Positions 3,932 to 63,917 are shown, counted from the stretch's first letter. The stretch: 64,000 nt of DNA from Candidatus Nanohaloarchaea archaeon (GCA_042218075.1 JBDGRK010000018.1:50224-114223), one strand, 5' to 3'. Numbers and translations are program-made. Notes: a model not told the origin generated them from the letters alone.

Positions 3932-3996
3932 GATTGTCGCAGGTTCCATCTGGAAGCTGCGTTGAGAAGCAGAATTCCTGCTTCGAATCGGCGATC
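3932..3996. repeat. REP-like two-hairpin palindromic element
   Basis: GATTGTCG...CGGCGATC enclosing a GCAG-TTCC/GGAA-CTGC hairpin and GAGAAGCAG-AATTC-CTGCTTCGAAT. Confidence 0.6.
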
Positions 3997-4056
3997 AAGT
4001 AAAGTTTCTATAAAACCAGCTGTAGCTATAAAAACTTCTTCTCCGAGTGATTCTGC

Positions 4057-5766
4057 ATGAGGCTAGGCGAGAAAGTCACCGAGCTTTCGAAGAGAAGAGG
4101 CTTCTATTTCCATACCTCCGGGGCTTATGGTGGAGTCGGAGGCTTCCAGACTTTCGGTCCAGAGGGAGCAGAACTGAAGAGAAATATTGAAGACTCCTGG
4201 AGAGATAAGTTCTCGCGCGAGCTTGGAAACAGGGAGATTGAAGCTCCGACAATCATGCAGGAAGACGTTTTCCGGGCTTCTGGCCACCTGGAGACTTTCG
4301 ATGATATGATCATCGAGTGCCCGGAATGCGGAGAGTCCATCAGGGCAGACCACCTGGTCGAAGACAACACCGGTATAGAGGAAGCGGAGAGCCTTTCGAC
4401 GGAGAGAATAGAAGAGCTGATCTCCGGGCACGACATCAAGTGCGGCTCATGCGGCAATGAACTCTCGGAAATCGAGGTGGAAGACTTCAACCTGATGTTC
4501 GAGACTTCTATCGGTCCGGGAGATTCACAGCCCGGATACCTGAGGCCAGAGACAGCGCAGGGCATCTTCGTTGAGTTTCCGCAGCTGAAAGAATACGAGA
4601 GAAACCAGCTCCCGTTTGGTATAACCCAGATAGGTAAGGCGTACAGGAACGAGATATCTCCGAGGAAAGGGCTTGTCAGGGTCAGGGAGCTGACTCAGGC
4701 AGAACTGGAAAAGTTCATCGATCCGGTGGAGGATGAACCGCCGCTTGAGGAGGTAGATGACGTGGAGCTTAAGCTCTATCCGCGTGAAAGACAGGGAGAA
4801 GGAGAACAGGATTACCTCAGGCTCACCGTTAGAGAGGCAGTCGAAGAGGAAGTTGTTGAGTCTGAGTGGATAGCCTACTACCTCGCTCACGCCAAGCTCT
4901 GGTTCGAGTCGATTGGAGTCGACATGGAAAGGTTCAGGTTCCGCCAGCACCTGGAGGACGAGCTCTCCCACTACTCGACGGACTGCTGGGACGCTGAATC
5001 ACAGGTGGATGGAGACTGGATAGAGATCGCGGGATTCTCATACAGGGGGTGCTACGACCTTTCAAAGCACGAAAAGTATTCCCAAGATGACTTCAAAGTC
5101 TTCAAAGAATATGAAGAGCCGAGGGTCGAGAAAAGAGCGAAGGTGGATCCCGACATGGGCTGGCTTGGTCCAACTTACGGAGACCACGCTTCAGAGATAA
5201 GTGAAGAGCTAGAGAGGATGGTGGAGGAAGAGCCAGAAGTCTTCGAGAGGAATGAAGAGCTGAGGCTGGAGATTGACGGAAAGATGTTTGAAGTTCCGGT
5301 TGAGAAGACAGGCTTCAAGATAGAAGAAGTTAAGAAGAACGGCGAGCACATTCTGCCACACGTCGCGGAGCCTTCCTTCGGCATCGACAGGGCAGTCTAC
5401 ACTGTGCTTGGCCACGCCTACGACGAGGACGAGGTTGATGGAGAAGAACGGAAGGTGCTCAGGATGTCGAATGATGTTGTGCCGACGCAAGTAGCTGTCT
5501 TTCCACTAATGGACAAGCCGGAGCTGAGTGAAAAAGCCAGAGAGGTCGAGCAAAAGCTGAGGAATGCTGGATTCTCTGTGAAGTACGATGAGTCGGGAAG
5601 CATCGGAAAGCGCTACAGGAGGCAGGACGAGATCGGGACTCCTTTCTGCATCACCGTTGACTACGAAACCCTTGAAGAGGAGCCGGAGACAGTCACTGTA
5701 AGGTACAGGGATTCGACAGAGCAGGAAAGAATAGACATCAGTAAACTCAAAGAATACCTGGAGTAA
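4057..5766 (+). CDS. glyS: Glycine--tRNA ligase (archaeal/eukaryote-type)
   Basis: ASGH, YLRPETAQGIF, RNEISPR, EPSFGIDR, SIGKRYRRQDEIG motifs. Confidence 0.97.
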   Translation: MRLGEKVTELSKRRGFYFHTSGAYGGVGGFQTFGPEGAELKRNIEDSWRDKFSRELGNREIEAPTIMQEDVFRASGHLETFDDMIIECPECGESIRADHLVEDNTGIEEAESLSTERIEELISGHDIKCGSCGNELSEIEVEDFNLMFETSIGPGDSQPGYLRPETAQGIFVEFPQLKEYERNQLPFGITQIGKAYRNEISPRKGLVRVRELTQAELEKFIDPVEDEPPLEEVDDVELKLYPRERQGEGEQDYLRLTVREAVEEEVVESEWIAYYLAHAKLWFESIGVDMERFRFRQHLEDELSHYSTDCWDAESQVDGDWIEIAGFSYRGCYDLSKHEKYSQDDFKVFKEYEEPRVEKRAKVDPDMGWLGPTYGDHASEISEELERMVEEEPEVFERNEELRLEIDGKMFEVPVEKTGFKIEEVKKNGEHILPHVAEPSFGIDRAVYTVLGHAYDEDEVDGEERKVLRMSNDVVPTQVAVFPLMDKPELSEKAREVEQKLRNAGFSVKYDESGSIGKRYRRQDEIGTPFCITVDYETLEEEPETVTVRYRDSTEQERIDISKLKEYLE

Positions 5767-5793
5767 AGGCTCTGAATACTTTTTCCCTTTCTT

Positions 5794-6552
5794 ATGAAGC
5801 CAGAAAACATCGCTCCCTTCTTGAAGGAAATCCTGAGATCGGGACGTGAACTTGAAGGAGGCCTGTATTCGAACCCAGAACTCTACGATGCAGTATATAC
5901 TCTGGATGCGGATTACCCGATCCTGGAAAGTAAAGTCAGGCAGAATATTGAGAAGGGTTCTTCTATTCTTTACATCGGCTGTGGTACGGGAAACCTGATA
6001 AGGAGGCTGGAGAACGACTACGAGATATTAGGAATTGACAGGAGCAGTCAGATGACAGATTACGCTTCAGAGAAAGTTGACTCTGAGATCAGAAATAAGA
6101 GTTCTTTCGAGATGGATTTTCATGAAGAATTCGACGCTGTGATACAGTTCGGTCTTTCTCTCAACTATATACTTTCGGAAAGAGAGATGGAGAGTCACTT
6201 CAGAAAGATAGGGGAGGCACTGAAGGAAGGAGGAGTATATCTGGCGGATTTCTGGACTTTGCTTGATAAGGGATCAGGATGGAAGACAGAATACGAGCTG
6301 GAAGGAGTTGATCTAGTTGTAGGATACAGCTTTGAAGAACTTGAGCATTGCATGGAGATGGAGATCAAGTTCAGGATTTCCTCCGATTTAGGTTCAGAGA
6401 AATTTAACAACACCCACAGGATAAGGAGCTGGGAGGTCGCGGAAATCAAGCAAATTCTGGAGCTTGGTGGGCTTGAGGCCGTTGGTTCCGAAAAACTGTA
6501 CGATCACCATAACTTCAGACTCGTAGAGGCAACCAGAGATAAAACAGGTTGA
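5794..6552 (+). CDS. Class I SAM-dependent methyltransferase
   Basis: ILYIGCGTG motif I; LKEGG. Confidence 0.85.
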   Translation: MKPENIAPFLKEILRSGRELEGGLYSNPELYDAVYTLDADYPILESKVRQNIEKGSSILYIGCGTGNLIRRLENDYEILGIDRSSQMTDYASEKVDSEIRNKSSFEMDFHEEFDAVIQFGLSLNYILSEREMESHFRKIGEALKEGGVYLADFWTLLDKGSGWKTEYELEGVDLVVGYSFEELEHCMEMEIKFRISSDLGSEKFNNTHRIRSWEVAEIKQILELGGLEAVGSEKLYDHHNFRLVEATRDKTG

Positions 6553-6578
6553 TAAAGAAGGGAGTCGTAGATTCTGGT

Positions 6579-7538
6579 ATGGCTGAATGCTCAAAATGCG
6601 GGAAGGAATCGATGAGCTTCACCTGCAAGTACTGCGGTGAAAAATACTGCTCGGAGCACCGTCTTCCCGAGAAGCATGATTGCGATGGGCTGGAGGAAAA
6701 GCTGGAGGAGGAAAAAGAAAAAGAGGAAGACCAGTGGTTCCAGGAGAATAAGGTGAAGAATCCCGCTCCCTCCCGGACGGAAAGAGAGTTCAGGAAGCCC
6801 TCTATCAAGCGTGATCTCAAGGAAATAATCACGAGTAATGTAACACTGTCTATAATCGGCTTCACTACTCTTGTTTTCGCGGTCCAGTCGATAATAAGCT
6901 CTTCACCGGGTTCACAGGCCTACAGTGCATTCTACAGTCTGCTGATTCTTGACCCGGCACTTTCGAGTGTCCTCGCGAAACCATGGACGCTTCTGACTGT
7001 AATGATACTCCACGGAGGGCTCTTCCACCTCTTCGCCAACATGGTAACATTCTACTTCTTCGGTTCGCCGATTGAAAGACTGGTGGGAGGTAAAAAGCTG
7101 CTGAAGTTTTACGCCGGAGCTGGACTTGCAGCCAGCCTTGGATTCGTGTTTTTCAGAAACCTGCTTTTCCTTCTACACGGTGAGGCACTGAGATGTATTG
7201 TACCGGGAGCCTGCGGAGGCATGGGCGTTCTGGGTCCGGCAGTAGGAGCTTCAGGTGCGGTGGTCGCGTGCTTTGCAGCGGTCTCAAGGCTTTATCCGGA
7301 CGCAGAGGTGCTGCTCTACTTCATCATTCCACTGAAGATCAGGACAGCTTTCCTGCTTTTCGCCGGTTTCGAGGGAATAAACATGCTTGTGATGCTTCTC
7401 GGTTACACTGTTCCGATTGTAGGCGGTCTTGCTTTCTCAGCACATTTCACTGGTCTGATAGTCGGACTCTGGTTCGGAGAGAGGATAAAGAAGAAGGTGA
7501 ATACAAGGAGTTCAAGGTTCGAGCTACTGGCGAGATAA
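6579..7538 (+). CDS. AN1 zinc-finger + rhomboid intramembrane serine protease
   Basis: CKYCGEKYCSEHRLPEKHDC; HLFANM, GASG, AHFTG. Confidence 0.92.
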   Translation: MAECSKCGKESMSFTCKYCGEKYCSEHRLPEKHDCDGLEEKLEEEKEKEEDQWFQENKVKNPAPSRTEREFRKPSIKRDLKEIITSNVTLSIIGFTTLVFAVQSIISSSPGSQAYSAFYSLLILDPALSSVLAKPWTLLTVMILHGGLFHLFANMVTFYFFGSPIERLVGGKKLLKFYAGAGLAASLGFVFFRNLLFLLHGEALRCIVPGACGGMGVLGPAVGASGAVVACFAAVSRLYPDAEVLLYFIIPLKIRTAFLLFAGFEGINMLVMLLGYTVPIVGGLAFSAHFTGLIVGLWFGERIKKKVNTRSSRFELLAR

Positions 7539-7568
7539 ACTTAATAGATTTCATGTCACTGAATATCT

Positions 7569-8015
7569 GTGGGAAAAAGATTCGAAAATGCCGCTGCCGA
7601 TGGCATCGAGAGTGTCGAAAACCCGGAGATAGAAGGAGTAAACGCAAATATAAGCTCTGGTTATAATATTCTGGATGCTTATATTTCGATCTCCACTTTA
7701 CTCAATGAGTTTAATTCTCCGACAATGGTAGTTGAGGCTAAAAATAATACATGCTACGAAGCGGGAGATAGAGCAATCGCAGAAATAAAGGGATATGAAG
7801 ATTGTGGATTGTTCAATCTTATTTTCAAAAATTCAGAGGAACTTCCAGGTCTTTACAGTGGTGAAGAGCCTGAAGCAGTGGTTGAAGATCGAGATGGAGA
7901 TATACAAAGCGGCCAGGTAGTATATTACCAGATTTTACCATATGAAATGGTTGAAAATGATCCAGTTCAAATCACAGGCGAAAATCCAATAGTCCAGAGA
8001 TTTTTCTCGGATTAG
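7569..8015 (+). CDS. Hypothetical acidic protein (start uncertain)
   Basis: Acidic ORF filling the gap; no recognisable motif. Confidence 0.5.
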   Translation: MGKRFENAAADGIESVENPEIEGVNANISSGYNILDAYISISTLLNEFNSPTMVVEAKNNTCYEAGDRAIAEIKGYEDCGLFNLIFKNSEELPGLYSGEEPEAVVEDRDGDIQSGQVVYYQILPYEMVENDPVQITGENPIVQRFFSD

Positions 8016-8557
8016 GGAGTTACCCTTTCCACCTCGTAATAAGTCACCTGCCTCTCCGCGTCGACCACCGCCCAGAGCATCGTTGCTCGAATATTGTGTG
8101 CGAGCCTCACCGCCCTTGACATCTCTTGGAAGCTGGTGTTGTAATCCTCAGGTACTGCATGCACAATCCACTTGGTATGCTCGTGGTCTTCCTTCGGCCC
8201 GTCCTTGTAAGGATTGACTCCCCTTGGATAGACCCTGAAGTGGGCTCCGAACTTGAAACCTGTCTTCACAATAAAACCTCTCTCCCTGAGATCAGAGTAG
8301 GCAGCGTACTTGTGGTCGAACTCGTCATCCTCGCTCGAAAAACGGTGGTAAATCTCCTCCCTCTCCAGTTTTTCACCATCCTCAACTATCTCAAGCTCCT
8401 CCCTATCGACGAGGTGGAGCGCTTCAACGAACGAAAGCTCCAGGTATTCCTCATCGTCAATAAACTTCCCGTAGTAAACCTCATCGTGTATCTTCTCCGC
8501 TTCTTCCTCGTCCCAGACCTTGACCTTGGTGTCAGAAATTTTGCCTTCTGCAGTCAT
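8012..8557 (-). CDS. endA: tRNA splicing endonuclease (tRNA-intron lyase), single-unit type, 181 aa
   Basis: LELSFVEALHL, AYSDLRERGFIVKTGFKFGAHFRVY, EH, VRLAH; start taken at MTAEGK. Confidence 0.95.
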   Translation of the reverse strand: MTAEGKISDTKVKVWDEEEAEKIHDEVYYGKFIDDEEYLELSFVEALHLVDREELEIVEDGEKLEREEIYHRFSSEDDEFDHKYAAYSDLRERGFIVKTGFKFGAHFRVYPRGVNPYKDGPKEDHEHTKWIVHAVPEDYNTSFQEMSRAVRLAHNIRATMLWAVVDAERQVTYYEVERVTP

Positions 8558-8588
8558 AGCAGAAAAAACACAGTGAACTTTTAAATTG

Positions 8589-9286
8589 TCAGAACTCTCC
8601 GAGCCCGCTCTGCTCAGACTCATCGATCAGGTCCTGTGAGGTACTCCAGCTCAACCTTGCCTCCGGCGGGAGTTCGCCTTTCTCTTTCAGGTATTTCTTC
8701 AGGAATTCTCTCGTCGGCTTGTCATGCGGGTAGCCCGACTTGAAGTCGTAGCCGTACTTTTTCTGAAGTTTTTCTACATGCTCCTCCCTTGCCGACTTTG
8801 CCACTATGGAAGCTGCTGATACTATATCATATTCTTCATCTGCCCCGTGCTCCGCCACAAACTTCATATCCTTGAACTTAACCGGCAACTGGTCTTTCAG
8901 CTTCCGGATGAATCGGTCTCCATCCGGCTCCGGCAGATCCACAAATACTTCATCCGCATCCGACCTCCTTATGACGTCAACAAAACCTTTAACCTCGATC
9001 TCGTTCAGGTTCATCACCTGGCTGAGCTCATCTATCTCCGAGGCCTCTATCTCTTTCAGGAAAGTCCTTCCAAGACCATCAAGCTGCTCTCTCAGTCTTT
9101 CCCTTTTCGAATCAGAAAGCTTCTTCGAATCTTTAACTCCAAGTTCGTCCAGTTCGTCCATTCGGGCCTCATCAACCATGAAGCCTCCAATAAACATCGA
9201 GCCGATGACGGGGCCTTTAGGCCAAACAAGACCGGAGATCCCGTTTATCTGCCTGCCTCGTCAACGCCCATGATCTTTTTAGTCAC
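8589..9286 (-). CDS. rnhB: Ribonuclease HII, spliced: complement(join(8589..9216,9249..9286)), 221 aa
   Basis: GTG-TKKIMGVDEAGR | GPVIGSMFIGG; also KDSKKL, VSAASIVAK, SGYPHD. Removing the 32-nt insert gives 666 nt in frame. Confidence 0.9.
9217..9248 (-). other. Putative 32-nt BHB-type mRNA intron in rnhB
   Basis: AGGC-AGA-[UAAACGGGA..UCUUGUUUG]-GCCU-AAA; cutting after nt 2 of each bulge regenerates GGC AGA GGC CCC (GRGP). Confidence 0.8.
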
Positions 9287-17774: not shown

Positions 17775-17876
17775 ATGAAAATCAGAGATTTTCTGGAACT
17801 CGAAAAACGCAGTTTTTCTGCGTTCACAAAGACGCGGAGCGTCTTTGAATCGAACAACCAAGAGGTAGTTCGATAA
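17775..17876 (+). repeat. Cluster of four REP-like hairpins between rpoH and rpoB'' forming a 33-aa bridging ORF
   Basis: GAAAATC-AGA-GATTTTC, CGAAAAAC-GCA-GTTTTTCT, CAAAGACGC-GGA-GCGTCTTTG, ATCGAAC..GTTCGAT. Confidence 0.7.
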
Positions 17877-28891: not shown

Positions 28892-28949
28892 ATGAACGAA
28901 ATTCAAAGAATTTCTGGGCATCCAGAAAATAACCTACGGTGATTTTCGA
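28892..28949 (+). repeat. Inverted pair of REP-like hairpins in the EF-2 leader (near-identical to 34586-34640)
   Basis: ATGAACGAAATTCAAAGAATTTCTGGGCA.CCAGAAAAT...GGTGATTTTCG. Confidence 0.85.
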
Positions 28950-31900
28950 ATGTCAGACGAGCTTGACGCCATTAAAGAGGTAATCAACGATCCCGAACAC
29001 ATCCGAAATATTGCTATCGCCGCTCATATAGACCACGGCAAATGCGTATCTCCGGACCAGCGGATCGCGCTTTCCGGCGGAAAACAGGTAAAAGCGGAAG
29101 AACTTTTTGAAGAATTCAGCGATAAAGGTGAAATTGTATCGAAAGGAGAAGAGACACAGATAAAGGTAGATTCTGGAGATGTTAGGGTCAAATCTCTCGA
29201 TAAGAGAACGGGAGAAGTTGTAGACGGCGAAGTAACTGATCTGTGGAAGATGGAGAATAAAGACTCGATCTATAGAGTAGAACTTGAAGATGGAAAAAAA
29301 GTTGAGACAACTCCGGAACACGAATTTCTAACTCTAAGGCAGAATGGAAGCTTTGACTTCGTGGAGGCGAGAAACCTATCTGAAAACCACACAGTAGTGG
29401 GTTCAAGGCTTCTGGAGGCCGATTCGCTAAGCGAGTCTGAACTGAAAGTGGAAATACTTGAAAGACTTTCAGAGGACGCCAATTACTATATCAGGCTTGA
29501 AGAAGAGTTTGCGGAAAAGCTACAGTCTGATATGAAGGAATTAGGGATGGAAAAAACATATGAACAGATTAGACCTGTTCTCGAGTTCGAATCTTTCAGG
29601 CATTGCAGCTGGAGGGGAGAGTACAGGCTGAAGACAGTTCTACAACTTGCGGAAAAGTTCTCCAGTAAAGCAGAACTCTACGATAGTATTGAAACAGTTA
29701 ATAGGAGAGGAACAGATAGCAAGGGAGTTCAGTCTTCGATCGAGGTAGAACTTCCAGACGATCTCTCCGGACTTTTCTACCTTGCAGGCATGTTCTTCGG
29801 AGACGGAGACCTTGAAGGGAACATTACTAATGACAACGAAGAGATCCAAAAGATTGTAGGGCGGAAGGCAGCAGATCTTGGGCTTGAACCTATTGCAAGA
29901 GAGTTTGAAGAAAGAGCTACAAGAATTGAGATAGGAGGAAAGACTCTCAGGAGAATTCTTGAAGATCTATTTGACTATCCTGAAGAAGATAAATCAGCGA
30001 GCATCAAAATTTCAGATCTTGTATTCCGGTCGCCTGAAAGATACATTAGCGAGTTCATCAGGGGCTACATGGACGCGGACGGGACTGTAGAAGATTCCAG
30101 ATCAGCGGTATCCGTAGGTTCAAAGAGCCTTAAAATGCTGGAAGACCTGCAGTTATTGCTCCAGAGGTTCGATATCGCTTCAAAGCTTAACAGGGAGAAT
30201 AAAACCCTATACATCTCGGGAAGTCTATCTCTTGAGAACTACCTTGAGATCGGTTTCGAGCACCCGGTTAAACAGCAGAAGCTGGAGGAACTGGTTAAAG
30301 AAGCGGAAAGCTCAAAGGCTGATAGAGTTCCTATTGATGGAGAAGAGGTCAGAGAAGTAAGGAAGAAAGCCGAACTAACGCAGAGCGATATGATCACCTC
30401 TTACACTAATTATGAGAACAATCATGTAGGTCTTACCAAGAAATCACTCAGAAAAATAACGGAGAGATTCGAGGAAGAAGGATTTGAAGGGCAGAAACTC
30501 AGAAGGCTGGAAAGACTCGCAGTCGCAGATACAACCTTCTCAAAGGTCAAAAATATAGAGAAGATGGAGAATACAGAGACTGTCTACGACTTCACGGTAG
30601 AGGATCACCACAACTTCATATCGGAGGGAATAGTTGTACATAACACTACTCTCACAGATAATTTACTGGCCAGAGCAGGCATGATTTCGGACAAGCTGGC
30701 AGGAGATCAAAGATTCATGGACTTCGACGACCAGGAGGCTGAGAGAGGGATCACGATCTACTCCGCCAACATCTCGATGGTCCACGAGTTTGACGGCGAC
30801 GATTACCTGATCAACCTTATCGACACTCCAGGCCACGTCGACTTCGGGGGAGACGTTACAAGAGCGATGAGGGCTGTCGACGGCGTTGTTGTCCTGGTTG
30901 ACGCGGTTGATGGTGTCATGCCCCAGACCGAGACAGTCATGAAGCAGGCGCTGCAGGAAGGCGTCAAGCCTGTACTGTTCATCAACAAGGTAGACCGCCT
31001 GATAGAAGAGATGCAGCTGACTCCGGAGGAGATGCAGGAGCGGTTCAAGAAGATAATCAGAGAGGTCAACACCGCTCTTAGAAAGTATGCGGACGACGAG
31101 ACCGCGGAGAACTGGAAGATGAAGGTGGATGATGGAACTGTAGCGTTTGGATCAGCGCTGATGAACTGGGCGATCTCGGTTCCATTTATGAAGGAGACCG
31201 GCATCTCGTTCGGGGAAATAATCGAAAGAGTAAACGAAGACGATCACGAAGGACTCGCGGAGGATGCACCGATCGAGGAAGTGGTGCTGGACATGGTTGT
31301 AAAGCACCTTATAGATCCCCATACCTCCGCGGAGTGGAGGATTCCAGCTGTATGGCCCGGCGACGTTGACTCGGAAGTAGGAAAGGACATGATGCAGCAC
31401 GACCAGGATGGAAGACTGGTAGGTGTCGTAACGAATGTTGAAGACGATGAGCACGCGGGAACTATAGCCACCGCGAGACTCTTTTCAGGAACAGTGAACG
31501 AGGGAGACGAGCTCTACGGTATAGGATCGCAGAAGACAGAGCGCGCCCAGCAGGTTGGAATTTACTCAGGACCCAGAAAGCTCACAGTTGACTCCGTTCC
31601 ATGCGGAAATATCGCCGCGATCACCGGTCCTGACTTCTCAACGGGAGAGACTTTCATTCTGGATGGAGAGGAGGAGATCCAGCCGTTCGAGCAGATCGAG
31701 CACGTCTTCGAGCCTGTTGTTACCAAGTCGATCGAGCCGAAGAGAACCTCCGATCTCCCCAAGCTTATCGAGGCGCTGAGGAAGCGCTCAAAGGAAGACA
31801 ATACTATCGAAGTCGATATTGACGAGGAGACCGGCGAGACACTGGTCTCGGGACTCGGAGAACTCCACATAGAAGCCAAAGTTGAAAGACACCTGGAAGA

Positions 31901-32735
31901 GAAGGGAATCGATATTGAGGTTTCTGAACCCATCGTGGTATTCAGGGAAGGCATCGATGACTCCTCACCAGAGATGATGGGCAAGTCGCCCAATCGCCAC
32001 AACAAGCTGGAAATCTCGGTCGAGCCTCTGGATGAATCTGTAAGGAAGTTTTTGAAGGAGGATTTGCAGGAAGTTAAAATGGAGGCGGATGAAGACAGGG
32101 AGATTACGGATGCGATGATCGAGGCAGGGCTCGATAAGGAAGACGCGGAGAACGTGATGGATGTGTTTGAGGAGAACCTGTTTATCAACGCCTCAAGAGG
32201 TATCAAGAACCTAAGAGAGATCAAAGAGTATCTTGTGGATGCGTTCCACGAGTTCTGCGAGGAAGGACCTCTCGCGGGAGAACCTGTGATTGGTCTAAAG
32301 GTAAAGCTTCACGACGCACAGCTCCACGAGGACGCAATTCATAGAGGTCCCGCACAGATGATACCCGCTACCAAAGATGCGATGAAGAGAGGATTCCTAG
32401 AGGCGACTCCAAGACTGATCGAGCCTAAACAGGTGCTCAGGATCGACACACCTAGCGATACAATGGGAGATGCGATGACCGAAGTCTCCAACAGAAGAGG
32501 AGACGTAATAAACATGGAGGAAGAGGGCGACTCATCTGTGATCAAATGCAAATTACCCGTAGAAGAGCTTTTCGGGTTTGAAGCAGATCTAAAGGGAGCC
32601 ACGAATGGAAAGGGGTTCTTCTCGCTGATCGACCTGATCTTCGAGCCGCTGCCTAGAAACCTCCAGGAGGAGAAGATCATGGATATTAGAGAGCGGAAGG
32701 GAATGAAGCAAGAGATGCCAAGCGTGGAGGAGTAG
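28950..32735 (+). CDS. fusA: Translation elongation factor 2, intein-containing
   Basis: AHIDHGK|TTLTD, DTPGHVDF, NKVD, diphthamide loop HEDAIHRGPAQ. Confidence 0.97.
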   Translation: MSDELDAIKEVINDPEHIRNIAIAAHIDHGKCVSPDQRIALSGGKQVKAEELFEEFSDKGEIVSKGEETQIKVDSGDVRVKSLDKRTGEVVDGEVTDLWKMENKDSIYRVELEDGKKVETTPEHEFLTLRQNGSFDFVEARNLSENHTVVGSRLLEADSLSESELKVEILERLSEDANYYIRLEEEFAEKLQSDMKELGMEKTYEQIRPVLEFESFRHCSWRGEYRLKTVLQLAEKFSSKAELYDSIETVNRRGTDSKGVQSSIEVELPDDLSGLFYLAGMFFGDGDLEGNITNDNEEIQKIVGRKAADLGLEPIAREFEERATRIEIGGKTLRRILEDLFDYPEEDKSASIKISDLVFRSPERYISEFIRGYMDADGTVEDSRSAVSVGSKSLKMLEDLQLLLQRFDIASKLNRENKTLYISGSLSLENYLEIGFEHPVKQQKLEELVKEAESSKADRVPIDGEEVREVRKKAELTQSDMITSYTNYENNHVGLTKKSLRKITERFEEEGFEGQKLRRLERLAVADTTFSKVKNIEKMENTETVYDFTVEDHHNFISEGIVVHNTTLTDNLLARAGMISDKLAGDQRFMDFDDQEAERGITIYSANISMVHEFDGDDYLINLIDTPGHVDFGGDVTRAMRAVDGVVVLVDAVDGVMPQTETVMKQALQEGVKPVLFINKVDRLIEEMQLTPEEMQERFKKIIREVNTALRKYADDETAENWKMKVDDGTVAFGSALMNWAISVPFMKETGISFGEIIERVNEDDHEGLAEDAPIEEVVLDMVVKHLIDPHTSAEWRIPAVWPGDVDSEVGKDMMQHDQDGRLVGVVTNVEDDEHAGTIATARLFSGTVNEGDELYGIGSQKTERAQQVGIYSGPRKLTVDSVPCGNIAAITGPDFSTGETFILDGEEEIQPFEQIEHVFEPVVTKSIEPKRTSDLPKLIEALRKRSKEDNTIEVDIDEETGETLVSGLGELHIEAKVERHLEEKGIDIEVSEPIVVFREGIDDSSPEMMGKSPNRHNKLEISVEPLDESVRKFLKEDLQEVKMEADEDREITDAMIEAGLDKEDAENVMDVFEENLFINASRGIKNLREIKEYLVDAFHEFCEEGPLAGEPVIGLKVKLHDAQLHEDAIHRGPAQMIPATKDAMKRGFLEATPRLIEPKQVLRIDTPSDTMGDAMTEVSNRRGDVINMEEEGDSSVIKCKLPVEELFGFEADLKGATNGKGFFSLIDLIFEPLPRNLQEEKIMDIRERKGMKQEMPSVEE
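29043..30644 (+). mobile_element. 534-aa intein with LAGLIDADG homing endonuclease in the EF-2 P-loop
   Basis: Starts CVSPD, TPEH block B, LAGMFFGDG and IRGYMDADG, ends VYDFTV..HHNF...VVHN; +1 residue Thr. Confidence 0.95.
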
Positions 32736-34585: not shown

Positions 34586-34640
34586 ATGAACGAAATTCAA
34601 AGAATTTCTGGGCAACCAGAAAATCACGGGTGATTTTCGG
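34586..34640 (+). repeat. Inverted pair of REP-like hairpins in the EF-1alpha leader
   Basis: Near-identical to 28892-28949. Confidence 0.85.
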
Positions 34641-35929: not shown

Positions 35930-36006
35930 CGCTCAGGTCGAAACTCCACTTCGGAGTTTCTGGCTATACACAAACTCGCTGTGAAGCGAGTTTGGAATAC
36001 TGAGCG
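35930..36006. repeat. REP-like two-hairpin element downstream of tuf
   Basis: CGCTCAG/CTGAGCG enclosing TCGAAACTCC..GGAGTTTCTG and CAAACTCGC..GCGAGTTTG. Confidence 0.7.
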
Positions 36007-37397: not shown

Positions 37398-37561
37398 AAA
37401 ATTCCGATCTAATTTAAAGATTCTACGATCAACTTCCTCTACAGAGACTTCCGAAAGCCATTCACAGAATGGCTTCTTGCGATGTAAGAGCGTAACCTTA
37501 CTGCCGGAGGTCGAAAACTCCGATGGAGTTTTCTCGGCCCCGGTCAAATCCAAAAGGATTT

Positions 37562-37786
37562 GCCGGAGTGACTGAGTGGCTAACGCGGGCGAAAACCCTT
37601 AACGGGTTTTCTAAAGCGAGGCTTCCTTCGCCGACTGCTCGTAAGGCTCGCTGGCTAAAGGTGCCACCTTGGAGACAACAGCTTCTCATCTCGTTGAGAA
37701 GCCGGTTTGAGAAAATCTCTGATTTTCGAATCCTGATAGGTGGTGGGCCATCTGCGCCCTCCTGGGTTCAAATCCCAGCTCCGGCG
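37562..37786 (+). tRNA. tRNA-Ser(GGA) with two introns: D-loop (~37584-37658) and 37/38 (37675-37737)
   Basis: GCCGGAG/CTCCGGC acceptor, CCACC-TTGGAG|A-GGTGG, long variable arm, T-arm. Confidence 0.85.
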
Positions 37787-38164
37787 ATATCATCGCCTAT
37801 GCTGGCATTTGATAAGAGAAGCTCCAACTTCTGCGAGCTTCGGATTCAAATCCCAGCTCCGGCGCTATGCTTTTTGCCAAACGATGCAAAAAGTAGAAGG
37901 TTTACAAAAAGATCTGCCAAACTGCTCCAAAATCCCAGAGGAGTTTGTGCGAACACAGAAACCGCAAAACGGTTTCGACTGGATCGCCTGCCAGTTGCGG
38001 TACAAATCCCAGCTTTGGCGCAACTCCTATCACAGAGTTGGCATGCGACAAGCCATGCAACAGGCATGGCTCTCAGAAGATTAAGTTTCCCAAAAAAATC
38101 AAGTTCATTGAAAGGATGAACGAGGAAAGAGAAAATACCTGATTTTCGACTCCAGCTCCGGCGC
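37767..38164 (+). repeat. Array of tRNA-Ser 3'-end copies separated by palindrome-rich spacers
   Basis: TTCAAATCCCAGCTCCGGCG at 37767 (tRNA) and 37845; degenerate copies at ~38001 and ~38145. Confidence 0.8.
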
Positions 38165-38205
38165 TTACTTTATATTTTATTAACAGAGTAAGGCAAAGAT
38201 TCTTC

Positions 38206-39831: not shown

Positions 39832-39973
39832 AGCCCCCTGGTGTAGCGGTCAAACCGTTTCACGGTTTTCCCACCGACCAACTCTATCGAGTAAGTCGGA
39901 GGGTCAAAGCCCGCGGGACAATTCATGAGAGGCCCTGGCCCTCTCGACGCAGGTTCGAATCCTGCGGGGGCTA
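39832..39973 (+). tRNA. tRNA-Gln(CUG) with 69-nt D-loop intron (39854-39922)
   Basis: AGCCCCC/GGGGGCT; relaxed BHB GGTC-AAA..GACA-ATT; anticodon arm GAGAGG-CCCTGGC-CCTCTC. Confidence 0.85.
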
Positions 39974-40023
39974 ACTCTACTCTTTTTTAAGAATTCGATC
40001 CTTTTTTAGACGTGTAAGGCGTC

Positions 40024-40148
40024 AGCCCCCTGGTGTAGCGGTCAAAGTCGAAAATGTAATTTCTCGACATTTATTTAATGTCGAGGACGGCGATCATACA
40101 TAGTGGCCTTTGGAGCCGCTGACCCAGGTTCGAATCCTGGGGGGGCTA
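40024..40148 (+). tRNA. tRNA-Gln(UUG) with 52-nt D-loop intron (40046-40097)
   Basis: BHB GGTC-AAA-GTCG..CGGC-GATC-ATA; anticodon TTG. Confidence 0.88.
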
Positions 40149-46192: not shown

Positions 46193-46330
46193 GCGGCTGT
46201 GGTGTAGTCCGGTCAATCATCTCGGCCTTTCGATCCCTCAAGTCCTCTCGGGGACGAGGACAAAGAAGCGCACTTTCGTGTGCTTCGATAAAGAAAGCCG
46301 ATCACCCGGGTTCAAATCCCGGCAGCCGCA
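46193..46330 (+). tRNA. tRNA-Glu(UUC) with 63-nt intron at 37/38 (46233-46295)
   Basis: GCGGCTG/CAGCCGC; TCGGC-CTTTCG|A-GCCGA; BHB helix CTTT/AAAG. Confidence 0.9.
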
Positions 46331-46371
46331 CTTCCGGATTTTTATTAATGTTGATACCGCGTTTTGAATTC

Positions 46372-52282: not shown

Positions 52283-52378
52283 CTGTATTAAAAGTTTCAC
52301 AAATATACCTTATCATCGTGTGCGAGGGTAGCCAAGAGTTCTTGCCAACCTCGTCAAAAATAACAGGCAAGAAATAAT

Positions 52379-52534
52379 GCGAGGGTAGCCAAGTGGTCAA
52401 AGGCGCAGCGTTGAGGCTACCTCTTCCTCCTCTGGAGGTGGAGGTTAGAGAAAATCTCTGATTTTCGAATAGAGGTTTTCGATTCAGATGCGCTGTCCCG
52501 TAGGGGTTCCGGGGTTCAAATCCTCGCCCTCGCA
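52379..52534 (+). tRNA. tRNA-Leu(GAG) with 73-nt intron at 37/38 (52417-52489)
   Basis: GCGAGGG/CCCTCGC; CAGCG-TTGAGG|G-CGCTG; BHB helix TTGA/TCAG. Confidence 0.9.
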
Positions 52535-52625
52535 TACTGACAGACTGTTCGGTTTAAGGTAGGCAGAGCTTTTCCCTTTCTACATCAATTGAAAGGTTAT
52601 AAACCTGAAAGTTGCTTCTTAACTT

Positions 52626-57093: not shown

Positions 57094-57198
57094 GATAGTT
57101 AAAACTTCAGGACAAACCGTTGATTACCAGATTCCCTCCAAAAGCCGCTGGAGCGATAGCGGAACGCGGCTTGGATTGATCAAACTTATCCTAAGTTT

Positions 57199-57273
57199 GG
57201 TGGGGGTAGGTTAGCTGGTCTATACTTCGACCTTGTGGCGGTCGAGACGCGGGTTCAAATCCCGCCCCCCGCC
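57199..57273 (+). tRNA. tRNA-His(GUG), encoded G-1
   Basis: CGACC-TTGTGGC-GGTCG; C73 discriminator. Confidence 0.9.
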
Positions 57274-60830: not shown

Positions 60831-60916
60831 ATTCGAAAAATCGCTGTTATAATTAATAAAACAGTCTTGTGAATTCTATCTTGAAAAACTTGAAAACGGA
60901 TCGAAAAGGTCATAAC

Positions 60917-61327
60917 ATGCTGAAGGAAAGGTTCAGAGCTGTCAGGGAAAACTTCAACAAGATGGCTTTTGGAAGCCTGATATTTTGTGCTGGATGGACC
61001 CTGGCATCGTTCCACGCACTCAAGGGAAACCTATGGGGAGTCTACATCTACATACTTGCGATGTTCGCTGGCTTCAAGATAGCGAGAGACGGAGATAACG
61101 GCATCAAGACACTGGACAGTGAGGATATCAGGAAACTGAAGAAGGGAGGAACGATCATAATTGATACAGTGCTGCTAGGTACAGGTTTCGTAATATTTTC
61201 GTACGGATACCTTACACAGTTCGAGGCGATCCTTAACTCCAGTCTCCTGATGAGTTTAAAATCTGCATTATACCTGATGATAGGATACGGTGTGGCACAC
61301 TATGGATTCACAAATGTTCCCTGGTAG
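60917..61327 (+). CDS. 4-TM membrane protein (pair B, gene 1)
   Basis: C-terminal GYGVAHYG, similar to 55429-55833. Confidence 0.7.
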   Translation: MLKERFRAVRENFNKMAFGSLIFCAGWTLASFHALKGNLWGVYIYILAMFAGFKIARDGDNGIKTLDSEDIRKLKKGGTIIIDTVLLGTGFVIFSYGYLTQFEAILNSSLLMSLKSALYLMIGYGVAHYGFTNVPW

Positions 61328-61714
61328 TTTAGACAAAGAATACCTGGAGGAATTTGCGGTCGGAGCAGGAAGCTTCGTTATATCAAGCACAGCGATGGTT
61401 ATCGGCTTTAACCTGCTGAGACAGGGACAGCTTTACGGAGCTTTTTTCGAGGCCTGTATAGCGTGGAGCGGATACATGCTGGGACATTACTCTCTTACAG
61501 GATCCTATATAGACGACAAGAGGAGTGAGATTGAGAAACCTGAGCTGAAAAGCATTCCCGGTCTTATCTCGGGAAGCTTGATATTCCTGACAGGTATAAT
61601 AGCTTCCATAATGACCCTGAGCCGTACCGGTTACCTCGCACCTTTCTTCTCTCTAATGATGTTTTCACGGGTTACATGATCATCCATTATGAAATGATGG
61701 GAGAGTTTCTGTGA
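61314..61714 (+). CDS. 4-TM membrane protein (pair B, gene 2), 1-nt frameshift at ~61663
   Basis: WSGYMLGHYSLTG; adding one T gives FFTGYMIIHYEMMGEFL*. Confidence 0.65.
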
Positions 61715-61774
61715 AATACCGGGTGAACTCGGGGTAAGTCAAAGAATAATAAACTCGACCACCGAGCAACAAGT

Positions 61775-62995
61775 ATGAGCGAACTTGAAGACGCCCAAGG
61801 CAACCTGGAGGAAGCACTGAAATCTATAGGTAAAGCAGAATACTACGAAAGATTGAAGGACCCCGAGAGGTTTGTAGAAGTCAACTTCCCCGTGGAGATG
61901 GATGGCGGTGAGAAGAAAATCTTCAAGGGTTTCCGGTCCCAGCACTCGACTGTAAGAGGCCCTGGAAAGGGAGGAATCCGATTCTCTACGGATGTGAACG
62001 AGGAAGAGGTCAAGGCTCTATCGCTCTGGATGAGCCTCAAGTGCGCTGTCGCAGATATTCCCTTTGGAGGGGCCAAGGGTGGAGTGGTAGTTGATCCCTC
62101 CGAGCTTTCTGAAGCGGAGGAGCAGAGGCTTTCAAGGCGCTATATTGACGCGATAGCGGAAATAATAGGCGAAAACAGGGATGTACCCGCGCCGGACATG
62201 AACACCTCGAGTGATCACATGGCCTGGATGATGGACGAGTACTCCGAGGACAACCGCGAACACGTACCTGGAGTGATAACCGGGAAACCGGTGGAAGCCT
62301 TCGGTAGTGAAGGTCGAGCTGAAGCGACCGGATACGGAGCAGTGTATGTGATTGAAAAACTGATCGAGGAAGAGGAACTTGACCCAGAAGAACTTACTGC
62401 AGCGGTACAGGGCTTTGGTAACGCCGCGGCTCCAGCGGTGGAAAAACTGGATGATATGGGAGTGAAGGTTGTAGCTGTCTCGGACTCTTCCGGCGCAACC
62501 TACAACGAGTACGGCTTCTCTTACCGCGAGCTAAAAGAATGCAGGAGCGAGCACGGAACAGTATGCAAGATAGGAGAAAACATAGAAAACTCAGAACTTC
62601 TGGAGCTTGATGTCGACTTCCTGATTCCTGCGGCGATAGAGGGCGTGATAACGGAAGAGAACGCTGATGAAATCAAGGCCGACTTCATTGTCGAGGTAGC
62701 GAATGGACCCACAACGAGGGAAGCAGATGAGATACTGGATGAGAAAGGAGTAAAGATGATACCCGATATTCTGGCAAACTCGGGCGGAGTCACCGTCAGC
62801 TACTACGAGTGGGTTCAGAACCGCTCCGGAGAGTACTGGGACAGAGAGAAAGTGCTGGAAAAGCTCAGGGAAAACATCCAGAAAGCCTACCTGAAGTTCC
62901 GCGAGAAGAGAGACGAGGAAGAAGTCTACGGTCGGAAGGCTGCTTACATGATCGGTGCGGAGAAGATCGTAGAAGCTATGGAGGTGAGGAGATGA
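61775..62995 (+). CDS. gdhA: Glutamate dehydrogenase
   Basis: GKGGIRF, GGAKGG, VPAPDM, QGFGN, NSGGVTVSYYEW. Confidence 0.95.
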   Translation: MSELEDAQGNLEEALKSIGKAEYYERLKDPERFVEVNFPVEMDGGEKKIFKGFRSQHSTVRGPGKGGIRFSTDVNEEEVKALSLWMSLKCAVADIPFGGAKGGVVVDPSELSEAEEQRLSRRYIDAIAEIIGENRDVPAPDMNTSSDHMAWMMDEYSEDNREHVPGVITGKPVEAFGSEGRAEATGYGAVYVIEKLIEEEELDPEELTAAVQGFGNAAAPAVEKLDDMGVKVVAVSDSSGATYNEYGFSYRELKECRSEHGTVCKIGENIENSELLELDVDFLIPAAIEGVITEENADEIKADFIVEVANGPTTREADEILDEKGVKMIPDILANSGGVTVSYYEWVQNRSGEYWDREKVLEKLRENIQKAYLKFREKRDEEEVYGRKAAYMIGAEKIVEAMEVRR

Positions 62996-63651
62996 ATGCA
63001 GCGGGTAAGTGTCCGCCTGAGAGAAGAGAATTCAGTCAACTGAAGCAGAGAAGTTTCGGGAGAGCCGAACTCTACCTTGAGAGGGAACACCTGGATAACT
63101 TCGAGAAATCCCTGAGAAACTGTGAAAGAGCTGAGGCAGAGATAGTATCCATCCATACCCCGCACGTGACTTCGAGGGAACTGGATTACTTCAGGAAGGC
63201 GGACGAAATGGCCTCAAGACTCAATGCAGAGCTAGTTGTCCACAGCCAGTACCTCCACCACGTCAATATTCCGTTTGTGGAGGAAAATATTGAATTTGAA
63301 TCTGACTACGGTTACGAGAACAACCCCGGTATTTCAGTGCGTGCAATCGAGAGCCTGATAGTTGAGAGAGGGTACAGCCTGGTGCTGGATACCGCCCACC
63401 TTTTTATGGCGGTGGAAGACTACCTGGAAAAAATGCGGTACATCCTCGATAGTTACGGTGAGAGGATTGAAGTTTTACACGTCAGCGATTCCACGAGGAG
63501 GAAGGATGGGAAAGCTTTCGGAGAGGGAGAGATGGATATGGAGAAGGTTTGTAGGATGGTGAAAGATTCAGGCTTTGAAGGCGAAATAGTGCTGGAGGTA
63601 ATGCCCGGACATCAGAAAGAGGCTCTGGAAAAGTGGAACAACTACACCTAG
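62992..63651 (+). CDS. Sugar phosphate isomerase/epimerase (xylose isomerase-like TIM barrel)
   Basis: SIH, VVH, YEN, LDTAH, HVSD, VLE metal ligands. Confidence 0.8.
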   Translation: MNAAGKCPPERREFSQLKQRSFGRAELYLEREHLDNFEKSLRNCERAEAEIVSIHTPHVTSRELDYFRKADEMASRLNAELVVHSQYLHHVNIPFVEENIEFESDYGYENNPGISVRAIESLIVERGYSLVLDTAHLFMAVEDYLEKMRYILDSYGERIEVLHVSDSTRRKDGKAFGEGEMDMEKVCRMVKDSGFEGEIVLEVMPGHQKEALEKWNNYT

Positions 63652-63665
63652 TGAGAATTTCTCAC

Positions 63666-63680
63666 CCTTTATAAGTTTTA
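63666..63680 (+). promoter_or_regulatory. Putative TATA box of the rRNA operon
   Basis: TTTTATAAG about 245 nt upstream of 16S. Confidence 0.4.
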
Positions 63681-63917
63681 ACTGTGATGTTTAGGATGCT
63701 CGCTACGCTGAGTATGCGGGCGTAAAGCCTGAGAGGGCGAGATGAGCGCATGTTTTATTTTTGCGTGATGCAGGAGAGACGGACCCGGAAACGTATTTAT
63801 TGCGTTTCCATTGCATGTAGCACAAGTTTTTGGCGGTTCGGCGATAGGGATATCGCCGTCCGAGAAGATCTTTGATCTTCGACTATCCCGTCCAACCCGA
63901 CTGAGAGATTGTCGGCA

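What the first reader, a model, noticed from the sequence alone, without database searches (positions are those of the whole stretch)
3932..63882. Dispersed REP-like palindrome family (AGAA-stem-TTCGA) colonising tRNA introns, tRNA flanks, operon junctions and the rRNA leader
Seen: hairpins with conserved asymmetric feet but variable stems. Forward orientation at 3964, 28922, 34616, 37709, 37816, 37957, 38129, 46264, 52448 and 63862; reverse ((T)CGAA..TTCT) at 17777, 17801, 28897, 34591, 35938, 37511, 37590 and 40048. They are often adjacent to a second hairpin (frequently CAAA-stem-TTTG: 17827, 35971, 37545, 37918; a lone one at 57181) and sometimes inside a closing stem. Established: bacterial REP/BIME elements have a conserved foot plus a variable palindrome and are spread by HUH (RAYT) transposases. 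Inference: this is an archaeal equivalent whose copies survive only where tolerated, such as spliced-out introns and spacers. The TTCGAAT foot resembles a tRNA T-loop.
Basis: partly seen in the sequence, partly recalled or inferred. Interest (0 to 1): 0.78.

Follow-up and report, generated by a model that had tools for sequence, protein, structure and literature searches.

The report
Mobile hairpin modules seeding archaeal introns
This tiny salt-loving archaeon carries many copies of a short hairpin module found in tRNA introns, tRNA flanks, the ribosomal RNA leader and small leader cassettes in front of translation genes; the copies come and go between close relatives, which may show how archaeal tRNA introns are gained.

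Summary
The strict form SAGAA-stem-TTCGA occurs 43 times in the 1.1-Mb genome, against a mean of 6.8 in shuffles. Outside long ORFs it occurs 33 times against 1.7.

The organism is a nanohaloarchaeon. The copies fall into four contexts:
- the second hairpin of long tRNA introns;
- insertions in tRNA leaders, and in trailers beside duplicated tRNA 3' ends;
- the 16S leader;
- start-codon leader-ORF cassettes before aEF-2, aEF-1alpha and RpoB'.

Copies are gained and lost between genomes of one genus with precise borders. The family is expanded here: 43 copies against 6 in a complete genome of the same genus. A 21-nt core variant occurs in 26 of 70 genomes of the phylum, in introns of at least 16 different tRNAs.

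No HUH/RAYT, TnpB or DDE transposase was found, so the REP/RAYT reading fails.

Best reading (0.5): non-autonomous mobile hairpin cassettes, including mobile BHB introns, that persist where RNA processing or translational relay bypasses them. Main rival (0.3): a functional RNA motif.

Earlier notes of this scan describe the same kind of element in other DPANN genomes.

The parts
3964..3986 (+). Single forward hairpin (G-type feet) in the spacer 71 nt upstream of a class-II aminoacyl-tRNA synthetase ORF (4057-5766).
8012..8623 (-). Context gene: tRNA-splicing endonuclease EndA (203 aa; tRNA_int_endo_N plus catalytic domain).
17775..17876 (+). Leader-ORF cassette before RpoB' (start 17877). It holds two reverse hairpins (about 17777-17793 and 17800-17820) and one CAAA-TTTG hairpin (17827-17847). 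Its 33-codon ORF stops at the TAA directly before the ATG.
28892..28949 (+). Leader-ORF cassette before aEF-2 (start 28950). It runs: duplicated ATG, reverse hairpin (28896-28916), linker, forward hairpin (28923-28949) carrying a second Shine-Dalgarno in its 3' arm. The 16-codon ORF ends 8 nt before the real start.
34586..34640 (+). Near-identical leader-ORF cassette before aEF-1alpha (start 34641). It is present only in this genome among those compared.
35938..35995 (+). Two-hairpin module (reverse hairpin plus CAAA-TTTG hairpin) directly after the aEF-1alpha stop codon.
37502..37560 (+). 59-nt insertion (reverse hairpin 37511-37535 plus CAAA-TTTG hairpin 37545-37561) in the leader of tRNA-Ser(GGA), bracketed by an 8-nt direct repeat of the tRNA 5' end. 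It is absent from the paralogous tRNA-Ser(TGA) locus on contig C20.
   Evidence: (joint 37501>37561, cut +8)
37561..37787 (+). tRNA-Ser(GGA) gene, exons assigned by eye. It has a D-loop intron (reverse hairpin 37589-37613, 7-nt direct repeat at its borders) and a canonical intron whose second hairpin is the forward copy at 37709-37729.
37788..38165 (+). Trailer with three further partial copies of the tRNA 3' end, each preceded by a hairpin (37816-37843; CAAA plus forward pair 37918-37978; 38129-38149).
40024..40148 (+). tRNA gene with an intervening sequence holding the weak reverse hairpin at about 40048. ARAGORN calls it Ile(tat) with a 31-nt intron; the exon assignment is uncertain.
46193..46331 (+). 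tRNA-Glu(TTC) with a 63-nt canonical intron of the 'class A' skeleton. Its second hairpin is the forward copy at 46263-46288, 9 nt from the 3' splice site.
52321..52535 (+). tRNA-Leu(GAG) (52378-52535) with a 73-nt intron; the forward hairpin at 52448-52468 sits in a three-way junction. A 16-nt duplicate of the tRNA 5' end lies 57 nt upstream.
57181..57199 (+). CAAA-TTTG hairpin abutting the 5' end of tRNA-His.
63862..63882 (+). G-type hairpin in the 16S rRNA leader, 36 nt before the 16S 5' end. It holds the same position in 6 genomes of three genera, with three compensatory stem variants.

Best explanation
The hairpins are copies of a short self-folding module found across the phylum Nanohaloarchaeota. 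One unit is 20-27 nt: unpaired 5' S-A, a stem that starts GAA and ends TTC, then unpaired G-A. Units occur singly or as cassettes of two or three hairpins (50-100 nt).

The cassettes behave as non-autonomous insertion DNA. They are gained and lost between genomes of one genus with precise borders, usually beside a duplicated piece of the target, and they have multiplied in this genome.

Copies persist where the cell removes or bypasses them:
(i) as the second hairpin of BHB introns cut out by EndA, and these introns themselves move between tRNA genes;
(ii) in tRNA leaders and trailers and in the pre-rRNA leader, which end-processing trims off;
(iii) exactly at start codons of translation genes. 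There the cassette brings its own start, stop and Shine-Dalgarno, so ribosomes translate a throw-away leader ORF and restart at the real start.

Shown: the family, its excess over chance, its contexts, gain and loss, and the absence of RAYT.
Inferred: DNA-level mobility as the cause, splicing and relay as the reasons for tolerance, and selection for self-contained folding as the reason stems covary.
The enzyme that moves the cassettes is unknown.
For: Excess over chance: 43 against 6.8, and 33 against 1.7 outside long ORFs.

Lineage-specific expansion. The complete genome G002 of the same genus has 6 strict hits, against 3-11 in 10 simulations. With relaxed stems the counts are 39 here and 5 in G002.

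Precise presence/absence:
- The aEF-1alpha cassette is in this genome only. It is absent from 19 of 19 other nanohaloarchaeal loci with upstream sequence and from 3 of 3 same-genus genomes.
- The aEF-2 cassette is present here, in G001 and in 1 of 12 other loci. It is absent from G002, G003 and G004. G001 and G004 have near-identical flanks around a 57-nt indel that includes one ATG.
- The two cassettes in the window share their first 30 nt, as expected for a recent copy.
- Related cassettes stand before other ribosomal-protein genes in G002 and G003. The eL21 gene of this genome has none.

tRNA introns:
- 9 tRNAs have an intron here but not in G002, and 1 the reverse. 5 of the 9 carry the hairpin.
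- Introns at the same site of orthologous tRNAs are often unrelated in sequence.
- One intron skeleton (class A) sits in 7 different tRNA identities in 6 genomes.
- The 21-nt core lies in ARAGORN-called introns in 14 of 32 loci from other genomes, covering 11 tRNA identities, plus more in this genome.

Target duplications flank the insertions: 3-4 nt (ATG), 7-8 nt, 16 nt and 22-27 nt.

Bypass devices are present: EndA, and leader ORFs that end 0-8 nt before the real start in 3 of 3 window cassettes.
Against: - No mobilising enzyme was found. Y1 HUH, TnpB and DDE_Tnp_1 are absent. The one integrase tested does not track hairpin counts.
- The duplicated target varies from 3 to 27 nt, unlike the fixed duplications of classical transposases.
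- Some copies look selected at the RNA level. G-type hairpins are in the sense orientation in 19 of 19 introns. They lie 9-10 nt from the 3' splice site in 9 of 10 class A/B introns (my count). The 16S-leader copy keeps its place and its GA..GA feet while the stem covaries.
- Copies cluster at tRNA, rRNA and translation genes rather than in any spacer.
- Gain has not been told apart from loss with a rooted tree.
- Intron calls rest on ARAGORN and inspection. No RNA data exist for this organism.
Confidence: 0.5

Rival explanations
1. Functional RNA motif. The G-type hairpin (GA-stem-GA, able to close with tandem G.A pairs) is a built-in structural or protein-binding module of precursor RNAs of the translation apparatus. 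One specific version: it acts as a local helix stacked beside the 4-bp central helix of a relaxed BHB, so that EndA sees a proper substrate. Copies would then be kept because they work, and spread only passively with their introns.
For: - Sense orientation in 19 of 19 introns.
- Fixed distance of 9-10 nt to the 3' splice site in 9 of 10 class A/B introns (my count).
- The 16S-leader copy is conserved in position in G000, G002, G003, G004, G017 and G019, with three compensatory stem variants and retained GA feet.
- 48 of 49 matches to the 21-nt pattern across 26 genomes pair A with T or G with C at the variable stem position.
- The hairpin also lies inside a group I intron loop and beside an RNase P RNA match in relatives.
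- In the tRNA-Trp and tRNA-Met introns it sits between box D'-like and box C'-like motifs. This is by eye, and the motifs are recalled.
Against: - Copies are dispensable. They differ between genomes of one genus, and the complete genome G002 has almost none outside a few introns.
- C-type units occur in both orientations within transcripts.
- There is no consistent closing helix, so neither K-turn nor strict BHB geometry fits.
- Covariation is also expected if selection merely keeps an insertion folded on itself.
Confidence: 0.3
2. Several unrelated hairpin classes are lumped together: intron hairpins, leader cassettes, and terminator-like or chance palindromes. They would share only an A/T-rich stem base favoured by this genome's composition.
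For: - The CAAA-TTTG class is barely enriched.
- About 7 strict hits are expected by chance. Five loci inside real ORFs, with long loops, look like such chance hits.
- G-type and C-type copies differ in context and polarity.
Against: - The same feet, the same loop bias and the same reverse-plus-forward pairing recur in introns, leaders and cassettes.
- Stems beginning exactly at GAA make up 66 of 564 hairpins.
- The strict pattern exceeds composition-matched simulations about 20-fold outside ORFs.
Confidence: 0.1
3. Remains of site-specific integration. The hairpins beside duplicated tRNA 3' ends would be arm sequences of small integrative elements inserted by tyrosine recombinases into tRNA genes, later cut down by deletion.
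For: - Duplicates of 14-24 nt of the tRNA 3' end behind intact tRNAs occur at 4 loci here and at least 5 loci in other genomes.
- A Phage_integrase gene lies next to tRNA-Pro with att-like repeats on contig C37.
- Segments behind the two tRNA-Ser paralogues are circularly permuted relative to each other.
Against: - It does not explain canonical introns, start-codon cassettes or the rRNA leader copy.
- The same module stands behind many different tRNAs, and once behind a protein gene's 3' end, which would need many different att sites.
- Integrase homologues do not track hairpin counts.
Confidence: 0.07
4. One reading: an archaeal REP/BIME family spread by a RAYT-type HUH transposase.
For: The shape is similar: conserved unpaired foot, variable palindrome, inverted pairs and clusters (for example three units on contig C14).
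Against: - PF01797 found nothing in this genome, while the same search found it in 6 of 14 control genomes.
- No TnpB.
- The feet differ from the GTAG/CGTC tags of REPs (abstract of PMC3733652, seen in the listing).
- Copy number is in the tens, not hundreds.
Confidence: 0.03

Closest known systems
Transposed BHB tRNA introns of Thermoproteales (Fujishima et al. 2010, known to me only through the review PMC4090602, passages read)
   Same: Near-identical introns sit in tRNAs of different identity, intron content turns over rapidly between relatives, and the mechanism is unknown and thought to act on DNA.
   Different: Here the shared part is a defined hairpin with conserved feet. It also occurs outside tRNA genes (mRNA leaders, rRNA leader, tRNA flanks, other RNAs). 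The lineage is DPANN, and the introns are long (60-226 nt) and mostly at the canonical site.
Bacterial REP/REPIN elements with RAYT
   Same: Short palindromes with a conserved unpaired foot and variable, covarying stems. They occur singly, in inverted pairs and in clusters, and are non-autonomous.
   Different: No RAYT/HUH gene, different foot sequence, tens rather than hundreds of copies. Many copies lie inside transcribed RNA genes and exactly at start codons, and target duplications are present.
MITEs, and Rickettsia palindromic elements (RPE; recalled, not read here)
   Same: Small non-coding insertions without their own transposase, tolerated inside genes and RNAs of a reduced genome.
   Different: No terminal inverted repeats matching a parent IS, no fixed target-site duplication, and no in-frame copies inside proteins seen here.
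Leader ORFs with termination-reinitiation coupling
   Same: The start-codon cassettes place a short ORF with its own Shine-Dalgarno so that it stops 0-8 nt before the main start, as in translationally coupled gene pairs.
   Different: The leader is a repeated hairpin cassette that is gained and lost. Its peptide is not conserved where the stems covary.
Integron attC sites (recalled)
   Same: Recombination hairpins recognised by structure, with conserved feet and free stems.
   Different: No integron integrase, array or attI was looked for or seen. This is purely a resemblance of shape.

Membership tests
REP/REPIN-RAYT | Short imperfect palindrome with a conserved foot, present in many extragenic copies | tested here: inconclusive
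   Hairpin plus conserved foot is met. However, the foot differs from GTAG/CGTC, there are only 43 copies, and many lie inside RNA genes.
REP/REPIN-RAYT | Cognate Y1 HUH transposase (RAYT) in the genome | tested here: not met
   PF01797 gave no match in G000 (92% complete); the same search found it in 6 of 14 control genomes.
IS200/IS605-derived palindromic elements (PATE-like) | TnpA or TnpB partner element | tested here: not met
   No match for PF01797 or PF07282.
MITE | Parent DDE transposon and a fixed-length target-site duplication | tested here: not met
   PF01609 gave no match (other DDE families were not searched). Flanking duplications range from 3 to 27 nt.
BHB (EndA-spliced) tRNA intron | 4-bp central helix flanked by two 3-nt bulges at the exon-intron borders | tested here: met
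   Geometry was calibrated on the 12-nt tRNA-Phe intron. By eye, the canonical introns of tRNA-Leu(GAG), Glu and Arg(TCG) have a central helix of 3-4 of 4 pairs. The hairpin itself is internal, not the BHB. A strict automatic scan missed the tRNA-Ser introns.
BHB (EndA-spliced) tRNA intron | Splicing endonuclease present | tested here: met
   EndA at window 8012-8623, minus strand.
BHB (EndA-spliced) tRNA intron | Actual removal from the RNA | not testable with these tools
   No RNA run holds this DNA.
Kink-turn (L7Ae site) | Canonical stem, 3-nt bulge, then tandem G.A/A.G pairs opening the second stem | tested here: not met
   Only G-type copies can form tandem G.A. About half the copies have C at that place. 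There is no consistent flanking helix or 3-nt asymmetry: 13 of 43 have no flanking helix and the rest have scattered offsets.
Integrative-element att remnant | Direct repeat of the tRNA 3' part bracketing the element, with a tyrosine recombinase | tested here: inconclusive
   Repeats are present at several tRNAs and one integrase gene is present. Its homologues do not follow hairpin counts, and this model covers only one context.

The most novel reading that the evidence does not exclude
The hairpin cassette is the vehicle by which archaeal BHB introns are born. A DNA-level process not yet described pastes a self-folding hairpin into highly transcribed genes, copying 3-27 nt of the target and often also an inverted piece of it. 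Examples of the inverted piece are the 'anti-T' segment that covaries with the T-loop, and the 4-nt intron segment complementary to the anticodon loop. That inverted copy supplies the helix of a BHB, so insertions in tRNA and rRNA precursors become spliceable introns at once. Insertions at start codons survive as leader ORFs. This would give a concrete, testable answer to how archaeal tRNA introns arrive.
Probability: 0.3. Interest if true: 0.85.

Novelty: new variant of a known kind. Interest (0 to 1): 0.66.

Why it matters
How archaeal tRNA introns are gained is an open question. [quoted passage not shown] A 2026 preprint on Asgard tRNA genes ends with 'how they arrive remains open' (abstract).

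In this genome one recognisable hairpin module links four things:
- mobile tRNA introns;
- insertions beside duplicated tRNA ends;
- a conserved rRNA-leader hairpin;
- start-codon leader cassettes.

Related genomes differ sharply in copy number. That makes the arrival route testable by comparing genomes and populations, and by EndA assays.

It also warns annotators. Rfam's tRNA model found only 16 tRNAs in this genome, against 37 ARAGORN calls, 28 of them with introns. Start codons of ribosomal-protein and elongation-factor genes can be mis-set by the duplicated start.

Tried and rejected
- K-turn reading: rejected, because there is no consistent flanking helix and half the copies have C at the G position.
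- The hairpin as the BHB itself: rejected. Flanks do not give the helix-bulge-helix geometry. Only an isolated CCGG/CCGG pairing of the 8-nt repeat at the tRNA-Ser leader was seen, without flanking helices.
- RNA evidence: no RNA holder is listed for this DNA.
- Strain-level indels from DNA contigs: uninformative. The joint skipping 59 nt at 37501>37561 matches the paralogous locus on contig C20. The joint removing the tRNA-Glu intron has short sides and probably comes from other organisms.
- Tyrosine recombinase of contig C37 as the mobiliser: homologues occur in 32 of 70 genomes with no visible relation to hairpin counts.
- Retron-type reverse transcriptase as the mobiliser: it is unique to this genome among 70. 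However, it sits on the contig with the most deviant composition, so it may be foreign or mis-binned, and the family exists in genomes without it.
- Viral origin: one match among IMG/VR contigs, in an AT-rich contig with no tRNA, about what chance would give by my rough estimate.
Absence is not shown.
- The 11-mer of the rRNA leader as a probe for more leaders: 19 of 20 further loci were not rRNA leaders.
The same question was answered by Pfam accession searches instead. The eS24 upstream region of G000 was not examined.
- Literature: nothing on such hairpins in Nanohaloarchaea or DPANN in the searches. These cover only the held library, and bioRxiv supplements were not open.


Full report
WHAT THE WINDOW IS

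The window is bases 50224-114223 of contig C10 of a 1.10-Mb assembly: 40 contigs, 46.9% G+C, 92% complete. Its aEF-1alpha is 81-88% identical to that of MAGs labelled Nanohaloarchaea and of Candidatus Nanosalina, so it is a DPANN nanohaloarchaeon.

The window ends in the first 83 nt of a 16S rRNA gene. ARAGORN in intron mode makes 37 tRNA calls in the genome, 28 of them with an intron of up to 226 nt; a few calls are dubious. Rfam's tRNA model finds only 16.

OBSERVATION

Every coordinate in the finding carries a hairpin: 10 of 10 forward, 8 of 8 reverse and 5 of 5 CAAA-TTTG.

A strict search (AGAA, perfect stem of at least 6 bp starting GAA, loop 3-14, then TTCGA) gives these counts:
- Whole genome: 43 hits, against a mean of 6.8 (range 3-14) in 20 third-order Markov simulations.
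- Outside ORFs of 150 aa or more: 33 hits, against a mean of 1.7 and a maximum of 5 in 60 simulations.

In a census of 564 perfect hairpins, 66 stems start exactly at GAA. Fully palindromic extensions are almost absent. The unpaired S-A .. G-A feet are therefore a real feature. The CAAA-TTTG class is only weakly enriched.

ANATOMY AND CONTEXTS

Two subtypes emerge.

G-type copies (GAGAA..TTCGA) are the last hairpin of long tRNA introns, for example tRNA-Ser(GGA), Glu(TTC) and Leu(GAG) in the window. One also sits in the 16S leader.

C-type copies (CAGAA..TTCGA, and its reverse complement TCGAA..TTCTG) occur mostly in pairs or with a CAAA-TTTG hairpin. In a reverse-plus-forward pair the unpaired dinucleotides of the feet are mutually complementary, so the pair can also fold as a small multi-arm junction (by inspection).

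The 'operon junction' copies are cassettes placed exactly at start codons. Before aEF-2 (which carries an intein), aEF-1alpha and RpoB' the order is:
1. the original Shine-Dalgarno and an ATG;
2. two or three hairpins;
3. a second Shine-Dalgarno inside the last 3' arm, or just after it;
4. the real start.

The first ATG opens an ORF of 15-33 codons that stops 0-8 nt before the real start. Elsewhere in the genome the same design precedes genes that I read by eye as uL16 and uL2 (named from the translation, not by a family search).

Behind tRNA-Ser in the window, and behind tRNA-Ala(CGC), tRNA-Trp and the paralogous tRNA-Ser(TGA), the order is: a spacer, a short segment complementary to the T-loop and T-stem, a linker, a hairpin, and then a second copy of the last 14-24 nt of the tRNA.

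The same layout recurs in other genomes. In one of them the T-loop reads TTCGAAT instead of TTCAAAT, and the complementary segment has changed with it. In another, the last 27 nt of a protein gene are duplicated around an inverted piece plus the hairpin (L202).

The tRNA-Ser leader has a 59-nt two-hairpin insertion bracketed by an 8-nt repeat and missing from the paralogue. tRNA-Leu(GAG) has a 16-nt duplicate of its 5' end 57 nt upstream.

COMPARATIVE EVIDENCE

1. Gain and loss of cassettes.
   - The aEF-1alpha cassette is found only here. It is absent from 19 of 19 other nanohaloarchaeal loci with upstream sequence and from G002, G003 and G004 of the same genus.
   - The aEF-2 cassette is present here, in G001 and in genome SG9 (1 of 12 loci). 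It is absent from G002, G003 and G004. G001 and G004 differ by a clean 57-nt indel that includes one ATG.
   - The two window cassettes share their first 30 nt, while G001's aEF-2 copy differs. The aEF-1alpha copy was therefore probably copied within this lineage (inference).
   - In G002 and G003 similar cassettes precede genes that I read as eS24, eL21 and uS3. In this genome eL21 has none, and uS3 has a different 85-nt insertion with a 7-nt repeat.
2. Expansion. The complete same-genus genome G002 has 6 strict hits, against 3-11 in simulations, and 16 of its 36 tRNAs have introns. With relaxed stems the counts are 39 here and 5 in G002.
3. Intron turnover. Nine tRNAs have an intron here but not in G002, and one the reverse; 5 of the 9 carry the hairpin. 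Where both genomes have an intron, the sequences are often unrelated. A 'class A' intron skeleton occupies 7 tRNA identities in 6 genomes (9 of 52 introns examined).
4. Spread across the phylum.
   - The 21-nt pattern GAGAARATCYYYGATYTTCGA matches 49 times in 26 of 70 genomes of the phylum. The reversed control matches 0 times. The maximum is in this genome, with 8.
   - 48 of the 49 matches pair A with T or G with C at the variable stem position.
   - Of 32 such loci from other genomes, 14 lie in ARAGORN-called introns of 11 tRNA identities. The rest lie behind tRNAs with duplicated ends, in a 16S leader, in mRNA leaders, at a gene's 3' end, inside a group I intron loop (Rfam 45 bits, below the 50-bit cut-off, E 4.5e-9), and next to a partial RNase P RNA match of 28 bits.

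MECHANISM TESTS

- No Y1 HUH (RAYT/TnpA), TnpB or DDE_Tnp_1 gene was found.
- A Phage_integrase gene lies beside tRNA-Pro with att-like repeats on contig C37, but its homologues do not follow hairpin counts.
- A retron-type reverse transcriptase is unique to this genome among 70. It lies on the contig with the most deviant composition.
- K-turn and strict BHB geometries do not fit the flanks.
- EndA is encoded in the window.

SIGNS OF RNA-LEVEL CONSTRAINT

- G-type hairpins are in the sense orientation in 19 of 19 cases among 56 introns examined. The single reverse case is a C-type. The loci were picked by the pattern without regard to strand.
- In 9 of 10 class A/B introns with credible borders the stem ends 9-10 nt before the 3' splice site. 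That leaves GA, 1-2 nt, the 4 nt that pair with anticodon-loop positions 32-35, and 2 bulge nt (my count; geometry calibrated).
- The 16S-leader hairpin keeps its position in G000, G003, G004, G017, G019 and G002. It shows three stem variants related by compensatory changes, with unchanged GA feet.

These facts fit two readings. Either the module has a role, for instance as a local helix beside the BHB, or selection merely keeps an insertion folded on itself and introns spread as whole sense-oriented units.

VERDICT

The REP/RAYT mechanism is not supported.

I commit to non-autonomous mobile hairpin cassettes, including mobile BHB introns, that are bypassed by splicing, end-trimming or translational relay (0.5). 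The main rival is a functional RNA module (0.3).

Gain against loss, the moving enzyme and actual RNA processing remain untested.

EARLIER NOTES AND LITERATURE

I looked up earlier AI notes of this scan after my reading was formed. They describe the same kinds of element in other DPANN genomes, including leader-ORF cassettes in Nanohaloarchaea. I count them as leads, not as support.

I found nothing in print on this family in the held library. What I read:
- passages of PMC5829648, which notes disrupted tRNA genes in DPANN;
- passages of PMC4090602;
- the abstracts of PMC3293823 and of the 2026 Asgard preprint.

Noticed in passing
G000 contig C29:4930-6099 (minus strand; locus L204): A 389-aa reverse transcriptase whose best match is retron-type RT models (PADLOC RT_II-A, E 1.6e-40). 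It stands beside an AAA_5 ATPase and two ORFs without family. It is found in 1 of 70 genomes of the phylum. The contig has the lowest tetranucleotide match to the rest of the assembly (0.70) and 41.8% G+C, so it may be a foreign island or mis-binned.
   Followed up: partly
window 28950-32735: aEF-2 is interrupted by an intein with a LAGLIDADG homing-endonuclease domain, giving a 1261-aa ORF.
   Followed up: no
G000 contig C37:2241-4423 (locus L174): tRNA-Pro(TGG) is followed by about 600 nt holding a 144-aa ORF without family, then a second copy of the tRNA 3' end and a Phage_integrase gene. Fragments of the same tRNA-Pro 3' end, each with a hairpin pair inserted, lie on C26 (about 3760-3870) and C23 (about 104880-104990).
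   Followed up: partly
G000 contig C14:46330-46620 (locus L180): A 290-nt divergent spacer between an adenylate-kinase-like ORF and a 1035-aa RFC-like ORF (read by eye) is filled with three C-type hairpins alternating with other hairpins. It looks like a BIME-like cluster.
   Followed up: no
G000 contig C26, upstream of the uS3 gene (5803-6852, minus strand): A different 85-nt insertion sits at the start codon, bracketed by a 7-nt repeat that includes the ATG. It opens a 27-codon leader ORF that ends 6 nt before the real start.
   Followed up: no
whole genome G000; loci L201 (G008) and G002:3488-3508: Rfam's archaeal RNase P model finds nothing in G000. In relatives a family hairpin lies beside or within an RNase P RNA-like region (partial match, 28 bits), so insertions may hide this RNA from the model.
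   Followed up: partly
locus L193 (G060): A group I intron-like RNA (45 bits, just under Rfam's cut-off) carries the 21-nt hairpin inside an insertion of about 80 nt in a peripheral loop.
   Followed up: no
G000 C23:110086-110328 (tRNA-Trp) and C15:38371-38520 (tRNA-Met): The introns hold box C/D-like motifs (motifs recalled, read by eye). In tRNA-Trp the hairpin sits between the D'-like and C'-like boxes.
   Followed up: no
window 39832-40148: Two adjacent tRNA-like genes share the same first 22 nt. ARAGORN calls them Cys(aca) and Ile(tat) with introns, and both assignments look doubtful.
   Followed up: no
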